Below are positions 18,045 to 61,606 of a stretch of DNA of 64,000 bases, piece after piece; the stretch's first letter is position 1, and each line of letters begins with the position of its first letter. The DNA lies in the NCBI GenBank assembly GCA_963840035.1, contig CAWIXE010000003.1, forward strand, positions 192,001 to 256,000. The letters are read 5' to 3'. The notes below the pieces were generated by a model. That model saw only the letters and a list, made by a program, of their open reading frames with translations. It made no database searches and was not told the DNA's origin. The stretch comes from a candidate division FCPU426 bacterium. Its GTDB lineage: Bacteria > Oederibacteriota > PGYV01 > Palsa-1178. Both the position numbers and the translations under genes were made by a program.

Positions 18045-21000
18045 ATGCGCAATACGTTTTTTTCATTTCTTTTTGTAATTCTTTCCGGTTTTTTCTCACT
18101 TGTTTATGCTTCATCTGAAGTCAGGAATCTTTCTGTCACGGGCGGGTGCTATTCGCCGGGGCAGATAATCACTGTTTCATTTGAGGTAAGGTCAAATGGC
18201 GCGTATCAGAACATATACGGCGACATACTTTTTTCAGGCAACAATACCGCGGAATATAACGACGACTGCGTATGGTCGGACACAGGCGCAAACAATCCGC
18301 CCAATGCCTCCGGGCACAACGGCGGTTTCTTTGTAAGCCAGGGTGCGGTTGCAAGCCAGTGGATAGCGAAAAGCTATCAGGTTACAGTTCCGGCCGGTTA
18401 CACGGGGGCCAAATACATCATAGTAAATGTTGCCGACAATTACCTGCAGTTATTCAACTGGGGAAGTCATATAGAAGCAAGCGCAAACTTGAGCGTAACC
18501 TCATGCGCTGTCACTGCTACACCGACGGGTACTGCGACAGGCACAGTTACAGTGTCACCGACTGTTTCACCGACGGCAGATTGCGGATGGAAGTATGTCG
18601 GGCCGGCGGATTTAATCTACGGGGAATTCAGCAATTACTCGGGCAAATCCATGTATGTATATAACGGCACACCATATGTTGTCTATGAGAATGTATTATC
18701 AAGCCCGCGCACGCTGACAGTAAAGAAATTTGACGGGACAAACTGGATACTGGTGGGGCCGGCTGAATTCGCTTCGCCCGCCGAGCCCAACGCCGGGTTC
18801 CCTGTAATATTCGTGGATAACGGCACGCCGTACGTGGCATATGCCGGCGACGTCAGCGAGCCGGTGGTAATGAAATATAACAGCGCAACTTTAAGCTGGG
18901 ATACTATAGGAACAATAATACCTACGGCCTGGGCGGTGCAAAATCCGTCGTTGTATGTTTATAACGGGATTCCATACCTTGCGTTCCAGGACGGGAAAAA
19001 CGGCTACAAGGCAACAGTAATAACTTATAACGGCAGCAGCTGGGTGCTGGCCGGAGGAACGCCGGCTTCTTCCACAACGACAGGAATACATGTCCATGAG
19101 ACATATCCGATGTATTTTGAGGGCACCACATGGCTGTATGTAAACGGCGGAACGCCGTACGTGGCATTTGAGGACGGCGCGAATGCAGGAAGAGTGACGG
19201 TAAAGATGTTAAGCGGCGGCAGCTGGGTTACAGTAGGGGCAGCCGGATTCTCTACAGGAGCGGCTACATGGGTTTCGATGTCGTTTGACGGCGGGACGCC
19301 ATATGTGTCATTCATAGACGGAGCAAATTCAAATAAAGTCACGGTCATGAAGTATACAAGCTCAGGATGGGTAACTGTAGGAACAGCAGGATTCTCTGAG
19401 TCGGCTGTCAGCTATCCTTCAATATCCGCTTATGGAGGAGTTCCGTATGTGGCGTATTTCACCAGGGACGCAGTCACGAACGCGGAGAAATCAGTGGTCA
19501 TGAAATACAACGCAGTCACAAACAGCTGGGACATGGTCGGCAGCGCGCCGTTTTTTGGGTTAACAGACGCGTACATATCACTGCAGGTGTCCAATGACGT
19601 GCCTTATGTTGCATTCCAGAACTGGGAAACAAATTACAACTCGGTGATGAAGTATGATTGTTCAGGCACGGCAACACCGACGGCCACCGTAACAGGGACG
19701 ACAACTGTGACCGTGACTGTGACGGCAACTCCGACAGAAACAGCGACAACAACCGGAAGGATCAGGAATATTTCCATATCGGGAGGTTGTTATACTCCCG
19801 GGCAGACGATTACCGTATCATTTGAGGTCAGGTCAGGCACTGCGTATCAGAACATATACGGTGACATACTTTTTTCAAACAATAATACGGCGGAATACAC
19901 CGATGACTGCGTATGGTCTGCTTCCGGCGAGAATAACCCGCCGGATACGGACGGCCATGATGGCGGTTTTCTTGTAAGCCAGGGCGCTGTTGCAAATCAG
20001 TGGATAGCGGTGAGCAAACAGATCACAGTGCCTGCGGGTTATGCGGGCAGCAAATACCTGATAATCGATATCGCTGATAATTACCTTCAGTTATACAATT
20101 GGGGAAGCCATATAGAAGCAAGCTCGGCCATTTTCGTTGATATGTGTCCTGTCATAACGCCAAGCGTGACAATAACCGGGACAGAAACAGTGACCGGGAC
20201 AGAAACAGCGACCGGGACAGAAACAGCGACCGGGACACCTACCGGGAGCGTTACTGTGACCATGACACCGACGCCGGATTGCACGAAGACATGGCAGTAT
20301 GTCGGGCCGGCAAAGCTTATAGACGCCGGATACAGCAATTTTTCAGGCAAATCAATGTATGTATATAACGGTACTCCATATGTGGTATATCAGGATACGG
20401 CGACAAATAAGCTGACGGTGACGAAGTTTGACGGTTCTAATTGGGTGCCTGTTGGGCCGGCTGGATTTGCATCGCCTGCCGAACCTAACGCGGGATTCCC
20501 GGTAATATTCGTAGATAACGGAACGCCGTACGTGGCATATGCAGGCGGGGTAAGCAAGGGGACCGTAATGAAGTACAATTCCGCCACAGATACATGGGAC
20601 ACGGTTGGCGCGGCAGGATTCACATCCGGCGCAATACAAAATCCGTCGCTTTTTGTTTCCGGCGGCACGCCTTACCTTGCGTATCAGGACGCGTCAAACG
20701 GATTTAAGGCAACCGTTATGATGTTCAACGGCAGCAACTGGGTAATGGTCGGAAGCCCGGCTTCTTCAGCCGCAACAGGGATACATGTCCATGAGCCATA
20801 TCCAATGTATTTTGAGAGCGCGTCATGGCTGTATGTCAATGGCGGAACACCGTACGTGGCATTTGAGGACGGCGCGAGCGCAGGCAGGGTAACGGTTAAG
20901 ATGTTCAACGGCAGCAGCTGGGTAAACGTCGGGCCGGCAGGATTCTCCGCAGGCGCTGCCACATGGGTTTCGCTGTCGTTTGACGGAGGGACACCGTATG

Positions 21001-23186
21001 TGTCATTTATAGACGGAGCAAATTCAAATAAAGCAACAGTCATGAAGTACGTAAGCGGAACATGGGTAACCGTAGGGGCCGCGGGATTCTCCGAAGGCGC
21101 CGCAAGCTATCCATCCATTGTTGTTTACGGAGGCGTTCCTTATGTGGCATATTGCACCAAGGATGCCGGAACGTATAAGGATAAATCGGTCGTAGTAAGG
21201 TATAACTCATCGACAAACAGCTGGGATGTGGTTGGAAGCACACCGTTCTACTATGAAACCGCGACATACATAACATTGCAGATATCCAATGATGTGCCTT
21301 ATGTGGCGTATCAAAACTGGGATGAAAATTATAATTCAGTAATGAAGTATGATTGTGAAGGAACGACAGGAACAGCCACAGCAACAGCCACGGAAACTCC
21401 GACCGGCAGCGTAACGGCCACGGAAACTCCGACAGGCAGCGTAACGGCCACGGAAACTCCGACCGGTAGCGTAACGGCCACGGAAACTCCGACCGGCAGC
21501 GTAACAGCCACGGAAACTCCGACAGGCAGCGTAACAGCCACGGAAACTCCGACAGGCAGCGTAACAGCCACGGAAACTCCGACAGGCAGCGTAACAGCCA
21601 CGGAAACTCCGACAGGCAGCGTAACAGCCACGGAAACTCCGACAGGCAGCGTAACAGCCACGGAAACTCCGACAGGCAGCGTAACAGCCACGGAAACTCC
21701 GACAGGCAGCGTAACAGCCACAACGACGCCGACGCCGGATTGCACAAAGGCCTGGCAATATGTCGGCCCTGCGGATTTAATCGACGGGGAGTTCAGCAAT
21801 TACTCAGGCAAATCAATGTATGTGTATAACGGCACACCGTATGTGGTCTATGAGAATGCATTATCAAGCCCGCGCACGCTGACAGTAAAGAAATTTGACG
21901 GGATAAACTGGATACTGGTGGGGCCGGCTGAATTCACTTCGCCTGCCGAGCCCAACGCCGGGTTCCCAGTAATATTCGTGGATAACGGCACGCCGTACGT
22001 GGCATATGCCGGCGACGTCAGTGAGCCGGTGGTAATGAAATATAACAGCGCAACTTTAAGCTGGGATACTATAGGAACAATAATACCTACGGCCTGGGCG
22101 GTGCAAAATCCGTCGTTGTATGTTTATAACGGGATTCCATACCTTGCGTTCCAGGACGGGAAAAACGGATATAAGGCAACAGTAATCACATATAACGGCA
22201 GCGGCTGGGTGCTGGCCGGAGGAACACCTGCTTCTACCACAACGACGGGGATACATGTCCATGAGCCATACCCGATGTATTTTGAGGGCACCACATGGCT
22301 GTATGTAAACGGAGGAACGCCGTACGTGGCATTTGAGGACGGCGCGAACGCAGGCAGGGTTACGGTTAAGATGTTAAGCGGAGGCAGCTGGGTAAACGTC
22401 GGGCTGCCAGGATTTTCCGCAGGCGCGGCTACATGGGTTTCGCTGTCGTTTGACGGAGGAACGCCGTATGTGTCGTTTATGGATGGGACAAATTCAAATA
22501 AAGTTACAGTCATGAAGTATACAAGCTCTGGATGGATAACCGTAGGGACCGCGGGATTCTCTGAAACGGCAGTAAGTTACCCTTCAATATCCGTTTACGG
22601 CGGAGTGCCGTATGTGGCGTATTTCAACAGGGACGCCGTCACGAACACGGAAGAATCGGTAGTCATGAAATATAACGCGGCCACCAACAGCTGGGACATG
22701 GTGGGCAGCACGCCGTTTTTCGGGTTAACAGACGCGTACATATCACTGCAGGTATCCAATGACGTGCCTTATGTGGCATTCCAGAACTGGGAAGAAAACT
22801 ACAACTCGGTGATGAAGTATGATTGCGTAACCTCAACGGCCGGAACCGTAAGCGCGCTTGCCATATCCAAAGAAATGCCGGCCCGTGACGCTTTTAAGAC
22901 GCTGGAGGAAAAAGAAGTATACTCCTACCCGAATCCGAGCACTGGTATTTCGAACATAAGGTTCCCGCTTTCCGGGGCAATGGAAGTAAGCATAAACATA
23001 ACGGACATAAACGACAAACCGGTATGGTCGCGTACTTTAAGCGTGATGGAAACAAGGGCCGGGATAAACACACTGGTCTGGAACGGCTTAAATGCCAGAG
23101 GGTTGTCCGTGTCCAGCGGCGTATATTTAGTTGTGATACAGGCCGGAAATACAAAAGTAACGAAGAAAATAGCGATAGTCAGATAG
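18045..23186 (+). CDS. Large secreted multidomain protein: 2 Ig-like modules, 3 predicted beta-propeller modules, Thr-rich linkers, C-terminal FlgD-Ig/T9SS-CTD-like domain
   Basis: Signal peptide; repeated GTPYVA[YF] and W..VG.AGF motifs; (TETPTGSVTA)x11; YSYPNPS...W.G.N..G..VSSGVY...KKIAIVR tail. Confidence 0.8.
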   Translation: MRNTFFSFLFVILSGFFSLVYASSEVRNLSVTGGCYSPGQIITVSFEVRSNGAYQNIYGDILFSGNNTAEYNDDCVWSDTGANNPPNASGHNGGFFVSQGAVASQWIAKSYQVTVPAGYTGAKYIIVNVADNYLQLFNWGSHIEASANLSVTSCAVTATPTGTATGTVTVSPTVSPTADCGWKYVGPADLIYGEFSNYSGKSMYVYNGTPYVVYENVLSSPRTLTVKKFDGTNWILVGPAEFASPAEPNAGFPVIFVDNGTPYVAYAGDVSEPVVMKYNSATLSWDTIGTIIPTAWAVQNPSLYVYNGIPYLAFQDGKNGYKATVITYNGSSWVLAGGTPASSTTTGIHVHETYPMYFEGTTWLYVNGGTPYVAFEDGANAGRVTVKMLSGGSWVTVGAAGFSTGAATWVSMSFDGGTPYVSFIDGANSNKVTVMKYTSSGWVTVGTAGFSESAVSYPSISAYGGVPYVAYFTRDAVTNAEKSVVMKYNAVTNSWDMVGSAPFFGLTDAYISLQVSNDVPYVAFQNWETNYNSVMKYDCSGTATPTATVTGTTTVTVTVTATPTETATTTGRIRNISISGGCYTPGQTITVSFEVRSGTAYQNIYGDILFSNNNTAEYTDDCVWSASGENNPPDTDGHDGGFLVSQGAVANQWIAVSKQITVPAGYAGSKYLIIDIADNYLQLYNWGSHIEASSAIFVDMCPVITPSVTITGTETVTGTETATGTETATGTPTGSVTVTMTPTPDCTKTWQYVGPAKLIDAGYSNFSGKSMYVYNGTPYVVYQDTATNKLTVTKFDGSNWVPVGPAGFASPAEPNAGFPVIFVDNGTPYVAYAGGVSKGTVMKYNSATDTWDTVGAAGFTSGAIQNPSLFVSGGTPYLAYQDASNGFKATVMMFNGSNWVMVGSPASSAATGIHVHEPYPMYFESASWLYVNGGTPYVAFEDGASAGRVTVKMFNGSSWVNVGPAGFSAGAATWVSLSFDGGTPYVSFIDGANSNKATVMKYVSGTWVTVGAAGFSEGAASYPSIVVYGGVPYVAYCTKDAGTYKDKSVVVRYNSSTNSWDVVGSTPFYYETATYITLQISNDVPYVAYQNWDENYNSVMKYDCEGTTGTATATATETPTGSVTATETPTGSVTATETPTGSVTATETPTGSVTATETPTGSVTATETPTGSVTATETPTGSVTATETPTGSVTATETPTGSVTATETPTGSVTATETPTGSVTATTTPTPDCTKAWQYVGPADLIDGEFSNYSGKSMYVYNGTPYVVYENALSSPRTLTVKKFDGINWILVGPAEFTSPAEPNAGFPVIFVDNGTPYVAYAGDVSEPVVMKYNSATLSWDTIGTIIPTAWAVQNPSLYVYNGIPYLAFQDGKNGYKATVITYNGSGWVLAGGTPASTTTTGIHVHEPYPMYFEGTTWLYVNGGTPYVAFEDGANAGRVTVKMLSGGSWVNVGLPGFSAGAATWVSLSFDGGTPYVSFMDGTNSNKVTVMKYTSSGWITVGTAGFSETAVSYPSISVYGGVPYVAYFNRDAVTNTEESVVMKYNAATNSWDMVGSTPFFGLTDAYISLQVSNDVPYVAFQNWEENYNSVMKYDCVTSTAGTVSALAISKEMPARDAFKTLEEKEVYSYPNPSTGISNIRFPLSGAMEVSINITDINDKPVWSRTLSVMETRAGINTLVWNGLNARGLSVSSGVYLVVIQAGNTKVTKKIAIVR
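21391..21720 (+). repeat. Coding 30-bp tandem repeat, 11 copies
   Basis: cggaaactccgac(a/c)ggcagcgtaac(a/g)gcca repeated in frame. Confidence 0.95.
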
Positions 23187-27740: not shown

Positions 27741-27859
27741 AGGCGGTCTCAGGTAAGGCGGTCTCTGATAAGACGGTTCATCTGAGACGGTTCACTTGAG
27801 ACGGTTCATCTGAGACGGTTCACCTGAGACGCCTCACCTGAGACGTACCTATTGAGACT
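27741..27859. repeat. Intergenic 14-nt-period repeat (AGACGGTTCAYCTG x6) with a short inverted arm
   Basis: Six units at 27771-27854; inverted aggcggtctc x2 at 27741-27765. Confidence 0.9.
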
Positions 27860-29109: not shown

Positions 29110-29201
29110 TTAACCCTTATCCTCATCCTTATCCTTAGCCTGTAGAATTTTTTTAAAGCAGAGGCCAAGAGCTAAGGAAAAGTATTAAGGATAAGGATAA
29201 G
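29110..29201. repeat. Intergenic 6-nt-period inverted repeat (TTATCC family)
   Basis: ttaacccttatcctcatccttatccttagc ... gctaagg...ggataaggataag; 22 bp identical to 61361-61382. Confidence 0.88.
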
Positions 29202-29217
29202 AAAAACGAGGTGCCGT

Positions 29218-35533: not shown

Positions 35534-35611
35534 GTGGCAGGCACGGGCAAAATTTTTCCATGGATTGCGCAGTAGCGCAGGCCATGGAAAAATTTCACCC
35601 GCGCCTGCCAC
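35534..35611. repeat. Long imperfect hairpin (78 nt)
   Basis: gtggcaggc..aaatttttccatgg..tgcgc agta gcgca..ccatggaaaaattt..gcctgccac. Confidence 0.8.
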
Positions 35612-36230: not shown

Positions 36231-36273
36231 AGGTCTAAAGTAATAATTACGAATTACCAATTACTAATTAGTT

Positions 36274-37347
36274 CGGTTCTAACATTTAACGCAACACTTT
36301 GATAGGATTATACTTTCAAAGGAGGCGTTAATAATCAATGAAGAATCCGAACTACAAGAGGTTAAGTTTCGAAGAACGGGAAGAAATTAGCAGGTATTTA
36401 GCAAGTGGTCTAAAAGCTGGCCGAATAGCAATGTTGATAGGTAGAAATAGAAGCACCATAACGAGAGAAATAAGAAAGGGTTTTAAAACAAATACATATC
36501 GCGCGGTACAGGCGAATAATAGAGCCAAAAGAAACGCCAAAAGGCGAAGGTTCGGAAAACGTAAGATAGATAAGTGTAAAAGATTAAAAAGGTTCATTGA
36601 AAAGCATCTCTGGTTAAAGTGGTCACCGGAACAGATTGCAGAAAAATTGAAAATAGAGTATCCTACGGACATGGACATGAGAATATCACCCGAGAGTATT
36701 TATGCATATTTGTATGTGAAGCCCAAAAGCCACTTGAAAAGAGAGCTGCTAAAGCAGTTTCGGCAAAAGCATTCCAGGCGGTTTAAAAGGAATGCCAGAA
36801 TGACCGGAATTGCAAAGGATTTAGAAGATATAACAAGCATAGATGAACGGCCTGCGGAAGTTGAAACACGAGAGATTCCCGGACACTGGGAAGGCGACTT
36901 AATGATTGGCAGACTTCGGCAGTCAGCCATCGGAACGCTTGTTGAAAGAAAAACAAGGTATTTACGGATTGTCCGGTTAAAAAACAGGACGGCAAAAGAA
37001 GTCAAGAAACAATTTGAAGCTACGTTTAAGAAACACCCTAAACAACTTAGATTGAGCATGACATATGACCAAGGCAGAGAAATGGCGGATCATAAAGCTC
37101 TAAGTAAGGCGTTAAATATTAAGATATATTTTGCGCACAAGAGAAGCCCGTGGGAACGTGGAACAAATGAAAACACAAATGGGTTAATACGGCAGTTTTT
37201 CCCTAAAGGCACAGACTTCAATAAGATAAGTTTAAAAGAACTCAGGTATGCAGAAAGACTGTTAAATCAAAGACCCAGAAAAACTTTGGGCTGGAAAACA
37301 CCCGAAGAGGCGTTTTATCAAGATGTTGCGTTAAATACTTGAAACCA
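36274..37347 (+). mobile_element. IS30-family insertion sequence (distinct from the first)
   Basis: Imperfect TIRs with core atttaacgcaaca / tgttgcgttaaat; AGTT at 36270-36273 and 37348-37351 is a candidate target duplication. Confidence 0.88.
36338..37342 (+). CDS. IS30-family transposase
   Basis: STITREI, WSPEQIA, PGHWEGD, TYDQGREMA, SPWERGTNENTNGLIRQFFPKG. Confidence 0.96.
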   Translation: MKNPNYKRLSFEEREEISRYLASGLKAGRIAMLIGRNRSTITREIRKGFKTNTYRAVQANNRAKRNAKRRRFGKRKIDKCKRLKRFIEKHLWLKWSPEQIAEKLKIEYPTDMDMRISPESIYAYLYVKPKSHLKRELLKQFRQKHSRRFKRNARMTGIAKDLEDITSIDERPAEVETREIPGHWEGDLMIGRLRQSAIGTLVERKTRYLRIVRLKNRTAKEVKKQFEATFKKHPKQLRLSMTYDQGREMADHKALSKALNIKIYFAHKRSPWERGTNENTNGLIRQFFPKGTDFNKISLKELRYAERLLNQRPRKTLGWKTPEEAFYQDVALNT

Positions 37348-37399
37348 AGTTACTAATAAAGGTTTTTTATTGGTAACTTAGTAATTTGTAATTGGTAAT

Positions 37400-38026: not shown

Positions 38027-38257
38027 GTGTACTCCTTTAAAATTTTAAAAGTAATACCTTGGATTAATGATACATTGGCGTAAAGCATAAGTCAAATAAA
38101 AGAACGTGAAGGCGCATTATGGGCGCCGGTGTTTTTGACAATCGAGAATCGAAAATTGGCCGTCGGCATTCGTCTTCGGGTGGGCAGAGTCTTTTTGAGC
38201 GGTTGATAGGTGGACATAATGAAGGTGAAACTATGTCAAAATTTTCCTGGAAAATTT

Positions 38258-38347
38258 TGGCGGAGAAGGAGGGATTCGAACCCTCGGGCCTCTTGCGAGA
38301 CCAACTGATTAGCAGTCAGCTGCCATCGGCCACTCGGCCACCTCTCC
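38258..38347 (-). tRNA. tRNA-Ser(GCT)
   Basis: GGAGAGG acceptor, anticodon arm GCTGA-CT-GCT-AA-TCAGT, long variable arm, GGTTCGAATCC, encoded CCA. Confidence 0.95.
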
Positions 38348-38368
38348 GTTGCGAAGCTAAAGCGGGCA

Positions 38369-38478
38369 ACAGTTCGACTGCTCGGCTGCTCGAATGCCCG
38401 CGTTGTTCAATTTTTTCTATGAGTGCCTTATAAATCAAAGTACAGATCTCGAGCATTCGAATAGCCGAACAGCCGACC
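38369..38478. repeat. Intergenic 8-nt-period inverted repeat ([C/T]TCG[A/G][C/A]TG family)
   Basis: ttcgactg ctcggctg ctcgaatg ... cattcgaa tagccgaa cagccga, between the two tRNAs. Confidence 0.8.
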
Positions 38479-38520
38479 GCATCCTGCCGGATGCTCTGCC
38501 AAAATTTTCTTTGAAAATTT

Positions 38521-38606
38521 TGGCGGAGGGCGAGGGACTCGAACCCCCAAGGGATCTCTCCCGTCAGATTTCAAGTCTGATGCATTACCAATTATACTAG
38601 CCCTCC
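38521..38606 (-). tRNA. tRNA-Ser(TGA)
   Basis: GGAGGGC acceptor, TCAGA-CT-TGA-AA-TCTGA, long variable arm, GGTTCGAGTCC, encoded CCA. Confidence 0.95.
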
Positions 38607-38618
38607 GCTTTAAGAGCG

Positions 38619-38728
38619 ATTTTAAATTTTAGATTTTATATTTTAGATTTAAGGAGCGCGATGCGCTTATATGATAAAAGTGCCACAGCACACCTTAAAT
38701 CTAAAATTTAAAATATAAAATCTAAAAT
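38619..38728. repeat. Intergenic 7-nt-period inverted repeat (ATTTTA[A/G/T] family)
   Basis: Arms 38619-38654 and 38693-38728. Confidence 0.9.
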
Positions 38729-38732
38729 TAGA

Positions 38733-38930
38733 CTATTCGTCCCAGCCTACCAGGATCCCTACGGCTACCGTTATGTATCCGCCTATAATAAGGATAGGCG
38801 CCACTGCTCCGGCCCAGTTTGAGGCGTCGGCGTTGACCTTGGTTAATATGAAGTATCCGAGCGCGAGCACCGCGAGTGCCCCGAGTATGATATAAAGGCC
38901 TTTGTTGTTCTTTGGTTTTGCTTCAGCCAT
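38733..38930 (-). CDS. Small two-TM membrane protein (DUF3098-like)
   Basis: 65 aa, AGGAGG-type RBS, APILIIGGY motif. Confidence 0.6.
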   Translation of the reverse strand: MAEAKPKNNKGLYIILGALAVLALGYFILTKVNADASNWAGAVAPILIIGGYITVAVGILVGWDE

Positions 38931-38979
38931 GTCAGTCCTCCTTATGTATATATATCGTCTTCAACGGACTTAAACTATA

Positions 38980-40257
38980 CTATTTTTTGCCAATCCTGTC
39001 AATACCGCCCATGTAGGGCCTTAAGGCCTCCGGGATGATTACTTCCATGTCCTTTGTCTGGTACGCCTCAAGTATGGCGGGGAAAAGCCTTGATGTGGCC
39101 AGTCCTGAGCCGTTTAATGTGTGCACAAAGCGGGTCTTTCCTTCTTTGTCTTTATAGCGGATCCTGGCCCTTCTGGCCTGGAAATCCTCGAAATTGGAGC
39201 ACGATGATGTTTCCCAGAACCTGTCGGCGCCCGGGTGCCATACCTCTATGTCGTAGGTTTTTGCCGACGAGAAGGTCATATCCCCGGTGGATAATAAAAC
39301 CACCCTGTAGGCGAGGTTAAGCTTTTTTAATACTGATTCGGCGTTATCGGTAAGTTTTTCCAGCTCGGCGTATGAATCCTCGGGACGGACGAACTTGACG
39401 AGCTCGACTTTGTTGAACTGGTGCATCCTTACGATGCCTTTCATGTCCTTGCCGTATGAACCCGCTTCTTTTCTGAAGCACGGCGTATATGCCGTGTAGA
39501 AGATGGGGAGGTCTTTGTCCAGGAGTACTTCATCTTTATGTATGTTCGTAACCGGGACTTCGGCGGTAGGAGCAAGGAAATAATCCGGGTCTGTAAGCTT
39601 AAAAGCGTCAGCTTCAAACTTGGGAAGCTGGCCCGTGCCGGTCATGGAGTCCCTGTTAATAAGTATCGGAGGCAATATCTCGGTGTAACCGTTTTCCCTT
39701 GTCTGCACATCGAGCATGAAATTGATTATAGCCCTTTCTAAAAGCGCGCCCAATCCCTTATATATGACAAACCGCGCGCCGGTTACCTTTACAGCCCGTT
39801 TATCGTCAAGTATGTCCAGGTGTTCCGCAATTTCCCAGTGAGGCTTTGGTTTAAAATCGAAAACAGGCTTTACGCCCCACTCGCGCACCAATGTGTTCGC
39901 TTTTTCGTCGTCGCCAACGGGTACGGAATCGTGAGGGATGTTGGGGATGTAAAGCAGTTTCGTGTTAAGCTCAAGGTCGACTTTCGCGAGTTCTTCATCC
40001 AGGACTTTGATCCTGTCGGAAACTATTTTCATTTCCGCTATTATGGAGGACGCGTCTTTGCCTTCTTTTTTAAGCTTCGCGATGTCGCCGGAAACCCTGT
40101 TGTTTTCAGCCTTAAGTTTTTCAACCTCTCCTAACAGTTCGCGCCTGCGTTTATCGAGGCTCATGGCGTCATCCACCAGCGTCAGGTCGACCTTTTTCTT
40201 CTTCAGGCTTTCTTTTACTTTTTCAGGGTTTTCCCTGATGAGTTTAATGTCAAACAT
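38980..40257 (-). CDS. serS: Serine--tRNA ligase
   Basis: N-terminal coiled coil, [36 protein letters not shown]. Confidence 0.98.
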
Positions 40258-42197: not shown

Positions 42198-43118
42198 ATG
42201 TACATATTCGGGCCCGTGCCGTCGAGAAGGCTGGGGTTATCCCTGGGGATAGACCCTCTGGCCTCCAAGAGCTGCAACTTGAACTGTGTATACTGCGAGC
42301 TTGGCAGGAGCTTTAAGCTTGTCAATGAACGGAAACTTTTTGTGCCGACAGCGGCCATTATTGACGAACTGAAAAAGTTCTTTGCCGCAGGCGGGGAAAC
42401 AGACCATGTGACCATATCGGGCTCGGGAGAGCCTACCCTGGCTTTAAATCTGGGTGAACTCATAGATGAAATTAAGAAAGTCACGGTAAAACCGGTGGCT
42501 GTCATCACCAACGGCGTGCTTTTATCTGACCCGCAGGTAAGGCGCGAGCTATTGAAGGCGGATGTGGTGCTTCCTTCAATGGACGCGTTTACAGAATCCG
42601 CATATATAAAAGTTAACAGGCCTCACGGCTCCATAAAGATGGAACACGTAATAGAAGGCCTGCGCGCATTTGCCGGGGAATATAAAGGCCGGATATGGCT
42701 GGAGATAATGGTCATAAAGGGCATGAATGATTCTGACGCTGACATGCTCGCGGCCAGAAAAGTGCTCGACACGATACCGGGGATAGAAAAGATTCAGATA
42801 AACACAGTAGTCCGTTCCAGGGCCGAGAGTTTTGCCGACCCGGTTAAGGATGAGGCGATGAAACACATGGCGGAAATACTGGGGCCGAGGGCTGAAGTGG
42901 TGGGCAAGTTCACCGGAGGCACGCTTCATACCATGGACGGCGCTGAGGACGCCATGTACGAGGCGCTAAAGCGCAGGCCCATGACCATAAATGACATAGA
43001 AGCATCCATAGGCTTAACCCCGGCAAAGGCGGCAGAATCTTTAGAAAGTCTTTTACGCCGAGGGCTGATTAAAAAGGAAGTTTTTAATGATAAGGAGTTT
43101 TTTAAGATAAAAATATAG
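42198..43118 (+). CDS. Radical SAM protein
   Basis: FGPVPSRRLGLSLG, CNLNCVYC (CxxxCxxC), SGSGEPTL. Confidence 0.92.
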   Translation: MYIFGPVPSRRLGLSLGIDPLASKSCNLNCVYCELGRSFKLVNERKLFVPTAAIIDELKKFFAAGGETDHVTISGSGEPTLALNLGELIDEIKKVTVKPVAVITNGVLLSDPQVRRELLKADVVLPSMDAFTESAYIKVNRPHGSIKMEHVIEGLRAFAGEYKGRIWLEIMVIKGMNDSDADMLAARKVLDTIPGIEKIQINTVVRSRAESFADPVKDEAMKHMAEILGPRAEVVGKFTGGTLHTMDGAEDAMYEALKRRPMTINDIEASIGLTPAKAAESLESLLRRGLIKKEVFNDKEFFKIKI

Positions 43119-43229
43119 TCTCAATAATCTCAGAAGTCTCAGTGATCTCAATAGGGAAGGCTGAAAAACAAAGCGCAGGTTCTGTTTTTACTATTGAGAC
43201 TTCTGAGATCATTGAGATTTCTGAGACTA
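43116..43229. repeat. Intergenic 9-nt-period inverted repeat ([G/A]TCTCANNN family)
   Basis: gtctcaata atctcagaa gtctcagtg atctcaatag ... ctattgagac ttctgagat cattgagat ttctgagac. Confidence 0.9.
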
Positions 43230-48661: not shown

Positions 48662-48723
48662 GGTAGCCGCAGCCTTTAGGCTGCGCAGGGCCGGCCTTTC
48701 GCAACCTGAAAGTTGCGGCTACC
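48662..48723. repeat. REPIN (two inverted GTAGCCGCA REPs)
   Basis: ggtagccgcagcctttaggctgcg ... cgcaacctgaaagttgcggctacc; supplies the TAG stop of terC. Confidence 0.85.
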
Positions 48724-52763: not shown

Positions 52764-52982
52764 TATAGTTTTTTTTGAGAATCCCAACACCATGCCTTGA
52801 CTCAAGACATTATAAAAAAATTCCCCTTATTCTATTAGCGCTTTGTCTAAAACTGCGTAAATAATGCTTATTTTATTATCCAGGGTAAACTAATAAAAAG
52901 TAAAACGGATACAATTAAGGTTGTGAAATTGGGCGTAATTTTAAAATAGAACTTTATTTTTTTACTTGTCATTTCTTGATTT

Positions 52983-53135
52983 GTAGAGCCGCTGCTTGTC
53001 GCGGCTCTGGGCTGAAACCGATGTTTCGGGCAGCCACCATGAACTACAAGGGTTCTTGGCAAGCAGAAGGGTACCCCTGCAGGAAGTGTAGGAATTTTAA
53101 TGGCAGCCTTGAGTCGCAGCAAGCGGCGGCTCTAC
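52983..53135. repeat. REPIN (two inverted GTAGAGCCGC REPs, about 100-nt spacer)
   Basis: gtagagccgctgcttgtcgcggctc ... gagtcgcagcaagcggcggctctac; relatives at 51359-51383 and 61453-61477. Confidence 0.8.
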
Positions 53136-53181
53136 GAAAGGCAGAACAGGCAAGCAACTTTTTTACACCAAACAAAACCCC

Positions 53182-55180: not shown

Positions 55181-55279
55181 AGTTCGGAGGGTGAAGGGTG
55201 GAGTTCGGAGTTCAACAAAGGCCGTTGATTAAAGCGGTGTTCTGTTTGAACTTCGAACTTTACCCTTCGAACCCCGAAC
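55181..55279. repeat. Intergenic 7-nt-period inverted repeat (AGTTCGG/AGGGTGG family)
   Basis: agttcgg agggtga agggtgg agttcgg agttcaa ... ttgaact tcgaact ttaccct tcgaacc ccgaac. Confidence 0.87.
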
Positions 55280-58474: not shown

Positions 58475-59515
58475 ATGCGTTTTGGTAACCCTGAAAACTT
58501 CAGGCTGTTATTCATAGTTGTGCCTTTGCTGCTTTTCTTCTTTTATAAAGTATATGTCATCATACGCAACCTTAATACTTTCTATGACAAAAAGACCGCT
58601 GCAAAGATGGCTTACGCGGTTTCGCCTGCGCTTGCCGTCGTAAAGTACCTTGTGCTGGCCGCGGCTTTTGTCTTCTTTATTATAGCTGTTGCCAGGCCGT
58701 GGGGAAAGCCGGTAAAGTCGGAAATGGAATTATCAGGGATAGACATCATGGTGGCGGTTGATGTCTCTTCTTCCATGGCCGCCATGGACCTTAAACCCGA
58801 CAGGATGGAAGTTGTAAAGCAGGGGCTGAAGGATTTTTCAATGTCGCTCTCAGGGGACAGGGTGGGAATGATTACTTTTGCCGGGACTGATTTTGTTCAG
58901 TGTCCTTTGACAGTGGACTATGACGCCTATGACCTTATAATAGACAGCCTTTACCCGGGTATGCTCTTTAAGGACGGTACTGCCCTGGGCAACGCCATAA
59001 AGTCCTGCGCTGACAGGATGGTGGAAAAAGCCGGCAAGTCAAGGATCATGATCTTAATCACCGACGGCGAATCAAACGCGGGAATACCCCCGGTGGAAGC
59101 GGCCAGATACGCGAAGGATAAGGATATAAGGATATACTCAATAGGCGTCGGGACTAAAGAGGGTGCAAAGATACCCGGCGGCGCGGACGTATTTGGCAGG
59201 AGATATTATAAGACCTATGAGGGACAGGAAGTCATCTCAAAACTTGACGATTCGGAGCTTCGCGAAGTGTCAGGCATAACAGGCGGAAAGTTCTACAGGG
59301 TGACTGACTTAAACGCCTTCAAATCAATTAAAAACGACATAAGGTTCATGGAAGAGAACAAGTCAAAAAAAGAAGAGATAAAACATGAGGAAAATTACGC
59401 CGGGTACCTGCTCATAGGTCTGATACTTTTTGTGCTGAGCCAGGCGCTTACGATAAGGGATTTAAAGACTTTTTCTTTTAAAGGGATGCTGGAAGGGAGA
59501 AAATCAAAATTTTAA
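58475..59515 (+). CDS. VWA-domain protein (BatB-like)
   Basis: MRF.NP start after GGAGG, ARPWG, DVSSSM, LITDGE. Confidence 0.88.
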   Translation: MRFGNPENFRLLFIVVPLLLFFFYKVYVIIRNLNTFYDKKTAAKMAYAVSPALAVVKYLVLAAAFVFFIIAVARPWGKPVKSEMELSGIDIMVAVDVSSSMAAMDLKPDRMEVVKQGLKDFSMSLSGDRVGMITFAGTDFVQCPLTVDYDAYDLIIDSLYPGMLFKDGTALGNAIKSCADRMVEKAGKSRIMILITDGESNAGIPPVEAARYAKDKDIRIYSIGVGTKEGAKIPGGADVFGRRYYKTYEGQEVISKLDDSELREVSGITGGKFYRVTDLNAFKSIKNDIRFMEENKSKKEEIKHEENYAGYLLIGLILFVLSQALTIRDLKTFSFKGMLEGRKSKF

Positions 59516-59610
59516 ATTTTCAATTTTATATTTTCAATTAACGGCAATAAGCGGGCCGAAATAAAGGTTTCTGTTTTTAATTGAAAATTGAAAATATAGA
59601 ATTGAAAATT
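59509..59610. repeat. ATTTT[CA/AA/AT] heptamer inverted repeat between convergent genes
   Basis: attttaa attttca attttat attttca attaa ... ttaat tgaaaat tgaaaat atagaat tgaaaat. Confidence 0.9.
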
Positions 59611-61358: not shown

Positions 61359-61582
61359 CCTTAACCCTTATCCTCATCCTTAACCTTAGCACGTAGCATT
61401 TAAGGTCCAAGATCTAAGGGTAAGGTTGAGGATAAGGGTTAAGGGTTTATACGTAGAGAGGCGGCTTGCTGCCTCTCAGGGCGGTGTTGTAGCATTCCTT
61501 AACCCTTAATCCTTACCCTTATCCTTAGCCCGCAGCCGTAGTTCCAAGAGCTAAGGATAAGGATGAGGTAAGGGTTAAGGGT
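61359..61582. repeat. Two 6-nt-period (TTATCC family) palindromes flanking a GTAG REP
   Basis: 61359-61444 and 61497-61580; REP gtagagaggcggcttgctgcctctc at 61453-61477. Confidence 0.88.
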
Positions 61583-61606
61583 TATAAAAGGCGCTTTTAA
61601 AAAAAG

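What the first reader, a model, noticed from the sequence alone, without database searches (positions are those of the whole stretch)
38619..38728. Palindrome arms use the same unit variants in shuffled order
Seen: the left arm is ATTTTAA-ATTTTAG-ATTTTAT-ATTTTAG, while the reverse-complemented right arm is ATTTTAG-ATTTTAT-ATTTTAA-ATTTTAG. Position-mismatched variants also occur at 43116-43229, 55181-55279 and 59509-59610. The innermost unit next to the spacer is best matched (ATTTAAGG, TCTCAATAG, AGTTCAA, ATTAA). Inference: the arms are neither plain inverted duplications nor held by exact pairing. Each looks independently assembled from a small unit alphabet anchored at the spacer, as expected for iterated protein-binding sites or unit-by-unit synthesis/slippage.
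Basis: partly seen in the sequence, partly recalled or inferred. Interest (0 to 1): 0.7.

Follow-up and report, generated by a model that had tools for sequence, protein, structure and literature searches.

The report
Five-core repeat arms of hairpin cassettes
The palindrome is one of about 300 intergenic hairpins in this bacterium whose two arms are unmatched draws of four 7-base words from a small shared vocabulary, and each arm is likely a five-site landing pad for a five-subunit four-helix-bundle protein whose gene is found inside such arms.

Summary
The deeper inference holds. Among 314 such palindromes in the genome, an arm matches its own partner no better than other arms of its family (5.91 vs 5.76 mismatches, n=266). 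G-U pairs are not enriched over partner shuffles. Order is not random: positions have preferred units, arms stop at five 3-base cores (371 runs of five, 119 of four, 11 of six), and long perfect repeats are depleted (13 seen, about 88 expected). The same kind of arms enclose four-helix-bundle (TIGR02436) genes in 38 of 90 loci, against 10 of 802 control ORFs. One relative has such a gene inside arms of this very subfamily. Solved homologues have five chains. Likely reading: a gene-less cassette remnant whose arms are sites for a pentamer; binding is untested. The repeat class is published (PMC4692102), and this scan noted the gene link in other genomes.

The parts
38619..38654 (+). Left arm: four ATTTTA(A/G/T) units plus fifth ATT core and inner ATTTAAGG end (3' arm of the minus-strand transcript)
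   Evidence: sequence
38693..38728 (-). Right arm, inverted: four units plus fifth core; begins 4 nt after the stop codon of the upstream gene (5' arm of the transcript)
   Evidence: sequence
38655..38692 (.). Spacer module shared by the ATTTTAG subfamily: two GC mini-hairpins (38656-38666, 38680-38691) around an A/T centre
   Evidence: sequence; related spacers
38667..38679 (.). Central TATAAT-like box. TTTAAG-17-TATCAT on minus (38699-38671) and TTTAAG-16-TATGAT on plus (38648-38675). Possible weak two-way promoter; in a relative a four-helix-bundle gene lies between two such boxes
   Evidence: sequence; not called by the promoter scan
38521..38606 (-). tRNA-Ser(TGA), 12 nt downstream of the element
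38733..38930 (-). 65-aa hydrophobic protein gene upstream of the element, conserved after serS in relatives
38974..39002 (-). TTGACA-17-TATAGT promoter-like site upstream of the small gene, so the element probably lies inside that transcript
   Evidence: consensus match only
43119..43226 (.). Same build, 9-mer TCTCAnnnn family
55182..55279 (.). Same build, GTTCGGA family; the same unit flanks the four-helix-bundle gene at G000:C1:786256
59509..59609 (.). Same build, ATTTTCA family (largest, 220 arms)
36246..37399 (.). ATTACTA-family arm pair split by an IS30-family element

Best explanation
The element is likely the gene-less remnant of a small mobile cassette whose full form carries a four-helix-bundle (TIGR02436/PF05635, Avd-like) gene between two inverted arms, and each arm is likely a binding site for the predicted five-subunit ring of that protein. 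Shown: an arm is four units plus a fifth core; the 3-base cores are nearly invariant; the other four bases vary within a small alphabet; the two arms vary independently; long perfect repeats are rare; such arms enclose these genes. Inferred: one subunit reads one core, which fixes the count at five and frees the linkers. Arms with identical neighbouring units would slip, gain or lose a unit and drop out, which leaves the mixed, 'shuffled-looking' arms. For this subfamily the empty form would arise by deletion between two TATTATAAT boxes that bracket the gene. The hairpin would be a consequence of two inverted sites, not a stem tuned base by base. How new copies enter behind stop codons is the weakest step; my guess is protein-assisted insertion with host repair enzymes.
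For: Five-core rule: ATT runs 371 of five, 119 of four, 11 of six, from a census that uses no profile. It repeats in 400-kb samples of G002 (17 of five vs 3, 3, 1) and G030 (26 vs 2 and 0, both strands counted). In 40 ATTTTCA elements, selected to have ATT cores, all 176 partner mismatches necessarily fall in linker positions, mostly 6 and 7; cores are 99% conserved in the family profile. Partner independence. The 5' and 3' arms are equally variable and use the same units. Perfect runs of 12 or more period-7 matches: 6 of 172 arms vs about 44 expected, and 7 of 347 vs about 44. Eight of the 10 arrays with 7 or more units are perfect-repeat runaways. Gene link: 8 TIGR02436 matches in the genome, 4 with inverted arms by eye. 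38 of 90 loci have arms vs 10 of 802 control ORFs. Ten or more five-core matches occur in 19 of 29 genomes with the gene and 0 of 12 without. At the same serS-tRNA site, G006 and G017 carry elements with the unit of a four-helix-bundle cassette of their own genome. L104/L188 has the gene inside ATTTTAT/ATTTTAA arms between two TTATAAT boxes. PDB homologues 2RLD and 2GSC have five chains each. Avd is a pentameric barrel whose five protomers contact one RNA stem-loop, with flipped-out bases between protomers (passages of 10.1101/2023.10.23.563531).
Against: No binding or mobility was tested. Five chains in a PDB entry suggest a pentamer but do not prove one. The genome has at least 18 unit families and only 8 genes, and none is flanked by ATTTTCA or ATTTTAG arms; one ATT-core cassette would have to serve several families. 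Protein similarity predicts arm similarity only weakly (Mantel rho 0.13, p=0.01, n=38), and shared ancestry explains that equally well. One clade of 21 genes has no downstream arm. Spacers are mostly unique (47 similar pairs among 885 half-elements, many due to partner-arm overlap), which is not what copy-paste of whole elements gives. The gene-inside-this-subfamily case is one locus with a broken gene and a truncated left arm; the metagenome hit L216 reads the same over the stretch shown and is not independent. Insertion with duplication of the box fits as well as deletion. The genome tally uses related genomes, two cores only, and a threshold chosen after seeing the data. G012 gave too few arms to confirm five cores, and 9-mer and 6-mer families fit 'five' less cleanly.
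Confidence: 0.5

Rival explanations
1. Host-selected RNA hairpins: the arms are kept because the transcript folds into a long stem (RNase III site, mRNA stabiliser or operon tuner), and paired cores are enough for that.
For: Strong fold on the sense strand (-40.9 kcal/mol, z=-10). 217 of 274 co-directional elements start within -9 to +15 nt of a stop codon. Orientation is fixed: 314 pairs vs 3 reversed. rRNA intervening sequences with this gene are cut out by RNase III (passages of PMC4990558). There is a small sense-strand G-U excess in the full set (375 vs 320, p=0.04).
Against: No partner matching, and no G-U excess beyond partner shuffles. Partners are, if anything, slightly less alike than chance (p 0.03-0.08 when oriented by transcription). 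349 of 1023 arms have no partner within 200 nt. The orthologous site has no arms in 10 of 16 relatives, by eye. A plain stem would not need exactly five cores.
Confidence: 0.2
2. Arms are written unit by unit at birth by a templated or template-switching synthesis that draws from the pool of existing units and stops after about 31 nt.
For: Recurrent double variants (119 of 664 units differ from the consensus at two positions) and mostly transversion-type mismatches (862 of 1557) do not look like point-mutation drift. Two half-elements with identical 20-nt inner sequence differ at 5 arm positions.
Against: No PF00078 reverse transcriptase and no TIGR04256 nuclease were found in this 98% complete genome. 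Other sibling pairs are faithful copies, with 0-1 arm differences. Independent draws would not avoid identical neighbours at positions 1-2 and 2-3 (6 vs 28.5 and 2 vs 26 expected).
Confidence: 0.2
3. Neutral slippage microsatellites that became palindromic by local inversion.
For: Slippage does act: the long arrays are mostly perfect repeats, up to 95 units.
Against: Sharp stop at five cores, depletion of identical neighbours, partners of the same family in 314 of 337 inverted pairs (9% expected by chance) yet not copies of each other, and the link to one gene family.
Confidence: 0.05

Closest known systems
Heptameric intergenic repeats of Xanthomonas (GGGAATC) and Nostoc (Rehm et al. 2015, PMC4692102; passages read)
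   Same: 7-nt units, clear preference for four units, intergenic, sense strand just after stop codons and antisense before starts, 70-75 inverted pairs per Xanthomonas genome.
   Different: That paper ties the four-unit bias to G-quadruplexes. Here at least 18 unit families, mostly A/T-rich, show the same count, so G4 cannot be the general cause. The passages I read do not mention partner independence, a perfect-repeat cap or a protein partner.
TAACTGA repeats of Beggiatoaceae (MacGregor 2015, PMC4679880; passages read)
   Same: Short intergenic heptamer sets (2-6 units), 'split' sets with a related 7-mer, an RNA-binding protein suggested.
   Different: Described as direct repeats with one inverted case; 'helix bundle' and 'intervening sequence' occur 0 times in its main text.
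ORF-bearing 23S rRNA intervening sequences, e.g. Coxiella S23p (PMC4990558; passages read)
   Same: Same gene family enclosed by terminal inverted repeats that form a stem of about 28 bp.
   Different: Those sit in rRNA and have a near-perfect stem. Here the elements are intergenic, the arms are degenerate tandem units, and most copies lack the gene.
DGR accessory protein Avd (10.1101/2023.10.23.563531; passages read)
   Same: Pentameric barrel described there as similar to S23 proteins; all five protomers contact an RNA stem-loop.
   Different: Avd works with a reverse transcriptase, and none was found here. Its RNA site is not a tandem repeat.
MITEs and REP/REPIN elements (PMC3733652 seen as a search listing only; other features recalled)
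   Same: Short, numerous, palindromic, intergenic, come and go between relatives, and are targeted by IS elements.
   Different: No shared internal sequence among most copies, no GTAG/CGTC tag, A/T-rich tandem arms, and no transposase identified.

Membership tests
Heptameric intergenic simple repeats (Rehm type) | Tandem 7-nt units with preference for four units | tested here: met
   172 of 220 ATTTTCA-family arms have four units; five-core census
Heptameric intergenic simple repeats (Rehm type) | Intergenic, next to stop codons, often as inverted pairs | tested here: met
   79 of 1023 arms mostly inside called ORFs; 217 of 274 within -9..+15 nt of a stop; 314 inverted same-family pairs
Heptameric intergenic simple repeats (Rehm type) | G-tracts able to form a G-quadruplex | tested here: not met
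   Units are ATTTTA(A/G/T); no G-tracts
23S rRNA intervening sequence | Located inside an rRNA gene | tested here: not met
   Lies between a protein gene and tRNA-Ser
23S rRNA intervening sequence | S23p/four-helix-bundle ORF between the inverted ends | tested here: not met
   This copy has a 38-nt spacer; the ORF is present in a same-subfamily element of G011 and in 38 of 90 surveyed loci
23S rRNA intervening sequence | Excision from RNA by RNase III | not testable with these tools
   Needs an RNA assay or RNA-end mapping
MITE | Copies share internal sequence | tested here: not met
   Few true sibling spacers among 885 half-elements; only the ATTTTAG/ATTACTA module is shared
MITE | Presence/absence at orthologous sites | tested here: met
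   serS-tRNA site in 16 relatives, by eye: 4 paired arms of other units, 2 single arms, 10 none
MITE | Target-site duplication and cognate transposase | not tested
   No relative close enough to show the empty site base by base; no transposase search was made for these ends
REP/REPIN | GC-rich 20-40 bp palindrome with GTAG or CGTC tag | tested here: not met
   Sequence; tag definition from the abstract start of PMC3733652
Diversity-generating retroelement | Reverse transcriptase in the genome | tested here: not met
   PF00078: 0 matches
Diversity-generating retroelement | Variation confined to template adenines | tested here: not met
   Invariant core has an A on each strand; the most variable position is C/A/G
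Site for a pentameric four-helix-bundle protein (proposed) | Sequence-specific binding to five-core arms | not testable with these tools
   Only indirect:

The most novel reading that the evidence does not exclude
The long-unexplained bacterial four-unit heptamer palindromes are the cis-sites of an undescribed family of selfish cassettes in which a homopentameric Avd/S23p-like protein reads five 3-base cores spaced 7 nt apart. The linkers carry a diversified alphabet that protects the site from slippage, and hundreds of gene-less copies are seeded behind stop codons without a transposase or reverse transcriptase.
Probability: 0.35. Interest if true: 0.8.

Novelty: new variant of a known kind. 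Interest (0 to 1): 0.5.

Why it matters
Four-unit heptamer repeats are reported from several phyla with no general explanation, and the S23p/TIGR02436 family has no known function (PMC4990558 passages). This genome has at least 18 unit families obeying one build rule, which excludes unit-specific explanations such as G-quadruplexes. It yields a direct test: a five-subunit ring against a five-core site. If right, one binding assay would join two open questions and define a new kind of non-autonomous element. If wrong, the counts still show that these hairpins are not tuned for exact pairing and that long perfect repeats are filtered out.

Tried and rejected
Shuffled-order rule: rejected. G-U or compensatory pairing: not supported. 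Avoidance of long perfect stems: none seen (13.4 vs 13.2 nt; near-perfect elements 19 vs 16.6 expected). Partners less alike than chance: p about 0.001 when arms are not oriented by transcription but only 0.03-0.08 when oriented, so I do not claim it. Re-randomisation of arms at every copying: mixed evidence. Replicating the partner test in G002, G012 and G030 (400 kb each): too few pairs, no test ran. Rfam: only the two tRNAs reached their gathering scores; the miRNA-type hits on the element are sub-threshold hairpin matches. The promoter scan did not call the spacer's TTTAAG-17-TATCAT site. GxxExxY nuclease and reverse transcriptase: not found. Metagenome pattern scan: 18 loci, one four-helix-bundle hit that reads the same as the G011 locus; the other printed ones look like A/T-rich chance matches; my script re-found the pattern in 11 of the 18. 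The protein tree is a quick tree on 122 columns and resolves little. Literature searches for the repeat-gene link listed no paper whose title or abstract start describes it; the library lacks most subscription journals and I opened no supplements. Dropped rows: 41 of 314 pairs failed profile filters and 7 more were in families under 4; the 6-mer CCTTA family and small families were not modelled; 5 of 95 gene loci lacked full flanks and one duplicate was removed; I viewed 21 of the 29 relatives' serS loci fetched.

Full report
Observation. The element starts 4 nt after the stop of a 65-aa gene that follows serS and ends 12 nt before tRNA-Ser(TGA), all on the minus strand. On that strand it folds at -40.9 kcal/mol (z=-10) with one G-U pair and two true mismatches in the arms. 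The three other loci also check out.

The family. In the whole genome (3.46 Mb; the window is C3:192001-256000) I found 297 tandem-arm palindromes, against 8 and 10 in block-shuffled controls. Unit profiles for 18 families gave 1023 arms (control: 3 vs 177 on contig C3). Pairing arms by position only gave 314 inverted same-family pairs, 23 mixed pairs and 3 reversed same-family pairs; chance family matching is 9%. 349 arms have no partner within 200 nt, and 217 of 274 co-directional elements begin within -9 to +15 nt of a stop codon. Co-directional placement itself is not enriched (274 of 314 vs 1397 of 1659 gaps).

For 266 elements, an arm differs from its own partner at 5.91 positions and from shuffled same-family partners at 5.76+-0.09. 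In a strict, transcription-oriented set of 115 the figures are 5.06 vs 4.84+-0.12. So partners are not copies of each other and do not co-evolve. G-U-compatible mismatches on the sense strand are 375, against 320 on the antisense strand and 862 compatible with neither (p=0.04). In the strict set they are 135 vs 118 of 582 (p=0.31), and per element 1.17 vs 1.20 in shuffles. The refutation criterion is not met. 'Shuffling' is not a rule, though: shared unit sets are 1.80 vs 1.75 (p=0.2), and 24 of 210 random pairs of ATTTTAG-type arms have the same set in another order, because three units make up 69 of their 84 units. Order is partly fixed by family-wide positional preferences: in-register 5.91 vs permuted 6.58, p=1e-8. 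The better inner match is equally strong with foreign partners.

Two build rules. First, length. A profile-free census of 3-mers at 7-nt spacing gives 371 ATT runs of five, 119 of four and 11 of six; shuffled intergenic DNA gives no run of five for any 3-mer. GTG gives 34, 28 and 2. G002 and G030 samples agree, and G012 was uninformative. Second, imperfection. Identical neighbouring units occur 67 times vs 118+-6 expected in ATTTTCA arms, and they are fewer than expected in all seven families tested. The deficit lies at positions 1-2 and 2-3, not 3-4. Runs of 12 or more period-7 matches occur in 6 of 172 and 7 of 347 arms, against about 44 expected in each set. Eight of 10 arrays with seven or more units are perfect-repeat runaways. 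I infer that slippage removes perfect arms from the five-core class and does not build them. Three-unit ATTTTCA arms are only 12, so contraction products are purged or seldom made.

Relatives. At the same site in 16 relatives with the gene-tRNA order, I saw by eye 4 palindromes of other units, 2 single arms and 10 short spacers. The site does not need this sequence.

Gene link. The genome has 8 TIGR02436/PF05635 matches; four have inverted arms and three have upstream arms only (by eye). Over 90 loci from this genome and relatives, 38 pass an automatic inverted-arm test, against 10 of 802 control ORFs, two of which are these genes. One clade of 21 never passes. Ten or more five-core matches (ATT pattern plus its reversed form, which picks up TTA-core families) occur in 19 of 29 genomes with the gene and 0 of 12 without; these are kin and the threshold was chosen afterwards. 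The elements at the serS-tRNA site in G006 and G017 use the units that flank a four-helix-bundle gene in the same genome. Most directly, the ATTTTAG subfamily has a conserved inner module, arm-ATTTAAGG-about 14 nt-TATTATAATA, with TTTA(A/T)(G/T) and the TATAAT-like box 16-17 nt apart in 13 of 24 pattern rows. In G011 a four-helix-bundle gene with one internal stop lies between two such boxes, inside ATTTTAT/ATTTTAA arms. Deletion between the boxes would give the window's form; insertion with duplication of the box would give the same picture. This is a single locus.

Mechanism. The genome's proteins match PDB 2RLD (E=5e-20) and 2GSC (E=2e-16), each with five chains. Avd is a pentameric barrel similar to S23 proteins, and its five protomers hold an RNA stem-loop through flipped-out bases (passages of 10.1101/2023.10.23.563531). 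I infer that one subunit reads one core, as TRAP does with spaced triplets (recalled, no call). That explains five invariant cores, free linkers and independent partners. The 5' and 3' arms are equally constrained, which fits recognition of either DNA strand better than of the sense RNA alone, but does not decide it. The insertion step is unexplained. No reverse transcriptase or GxxExxY nuclease was found, and spacers are mostly unique. I give this reading 0.5, host-selected RNA stems 0.2, synthesis at birth 0.2 and neutral slippage 0.05.

What is known. Rehm et al. (PMC4692102, 12 of 19 matched passages) report heptamer repeats with a four-unit preference, the same placement and inverted pairs. 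MacGregor (PMC4679880, 10 passages) reports TAACTGA sets. The Coxiella intervening sequence (PMC4990558, 12 of 27 passages) has this gene in a 28-bp stem cut by RNase III. My searches listed no paper on the repeat-gene link. Earlier notes of this scan describe it in at least 11 genomes (8 shown) and the repeats in this genome; my gene-link guess was stated when I opened them, and they are not independent support. A look-up for the five-core/pentamer idea found no note with all the words.

Verdict. The feature is real; the 'shuffle' is chance within a small alphabet; the independence of the arms is confirmed. The class is known, and the build rules and the pentamer hypothesis are the new, testable part. 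Interest 0.5; new variant of a known kind.

Noticed in passing
window 36246-37399; G000:C3:54917-56078; G000:C2:827248-828435: All 3 copies of one IS30-family element sit inside ATTACTA-family arm pairs. A second IS30 type lies beside ATTCTGG arms in 3 of 4 copies. Two other IS30-like groups show no such pattern. This suggests unit-specific targeting.
   Followed up: partly
G000:C2:1613231 and C2:654249, 809193, 1359279: Runaway perfect arrays of 95, 13, 11 and 10 units in one arm of otherwise normal elements; likely length-variable between cells.
   Followed up: partly
G000:C1:116924, 238090, 607748, 1182049; C2:99165, 650307, 828377, 1458326: The GGTG...TATTATAATA inner module is shared between ATTTTAG and ATTACTA arms and was found only once without arms.
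   Followed up: partly
G000:C2:73387, C3:492520, C2:1127095 and relatives L051, L054, L055, L058, L090: A clade of four-helix-bundle genes starting M(A/P/S)FxFENL has repeats only upstream, with the same unit in close homologues.
   Followed up: partly
window 61359-61584 and 29115-29206; G000:C1:882542-882946; C2:243921-244487: A 6/7-mer CCTTA family forms chains of alternating arms with about 100-nt periodicity; it was not modelled.
   Followed up: no
window 38237-38522: Between the two tRNA-Ser genes lie an inverted repeat (CAAAATTTTC...) and 8-mer CGAACAGC-type arms; a similar unit lies upstream of the gene at G000:C2:1127095.
   Followed up: no
window 35534-35611, 48662-48723, 52980-53138: GC-rich palindromes of another kind, two starting GTAG (REP-like; label recalled).
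   Followed up: no
window 27771-27845; 20175-20237; 21383-21721: An intergenic 14-nt tandem repeat of 5.4 copies in the arginine operon, and Thr/Pro-rich coding repeats in a 1713-aa ORF.
   Followed up: no
genome-wide, 314 pairs: 20 spacers contain a GC-rich hairpin of at least 7 bp, several terminator-like, so arms sometimes enclose other elements.
   Followed up: no
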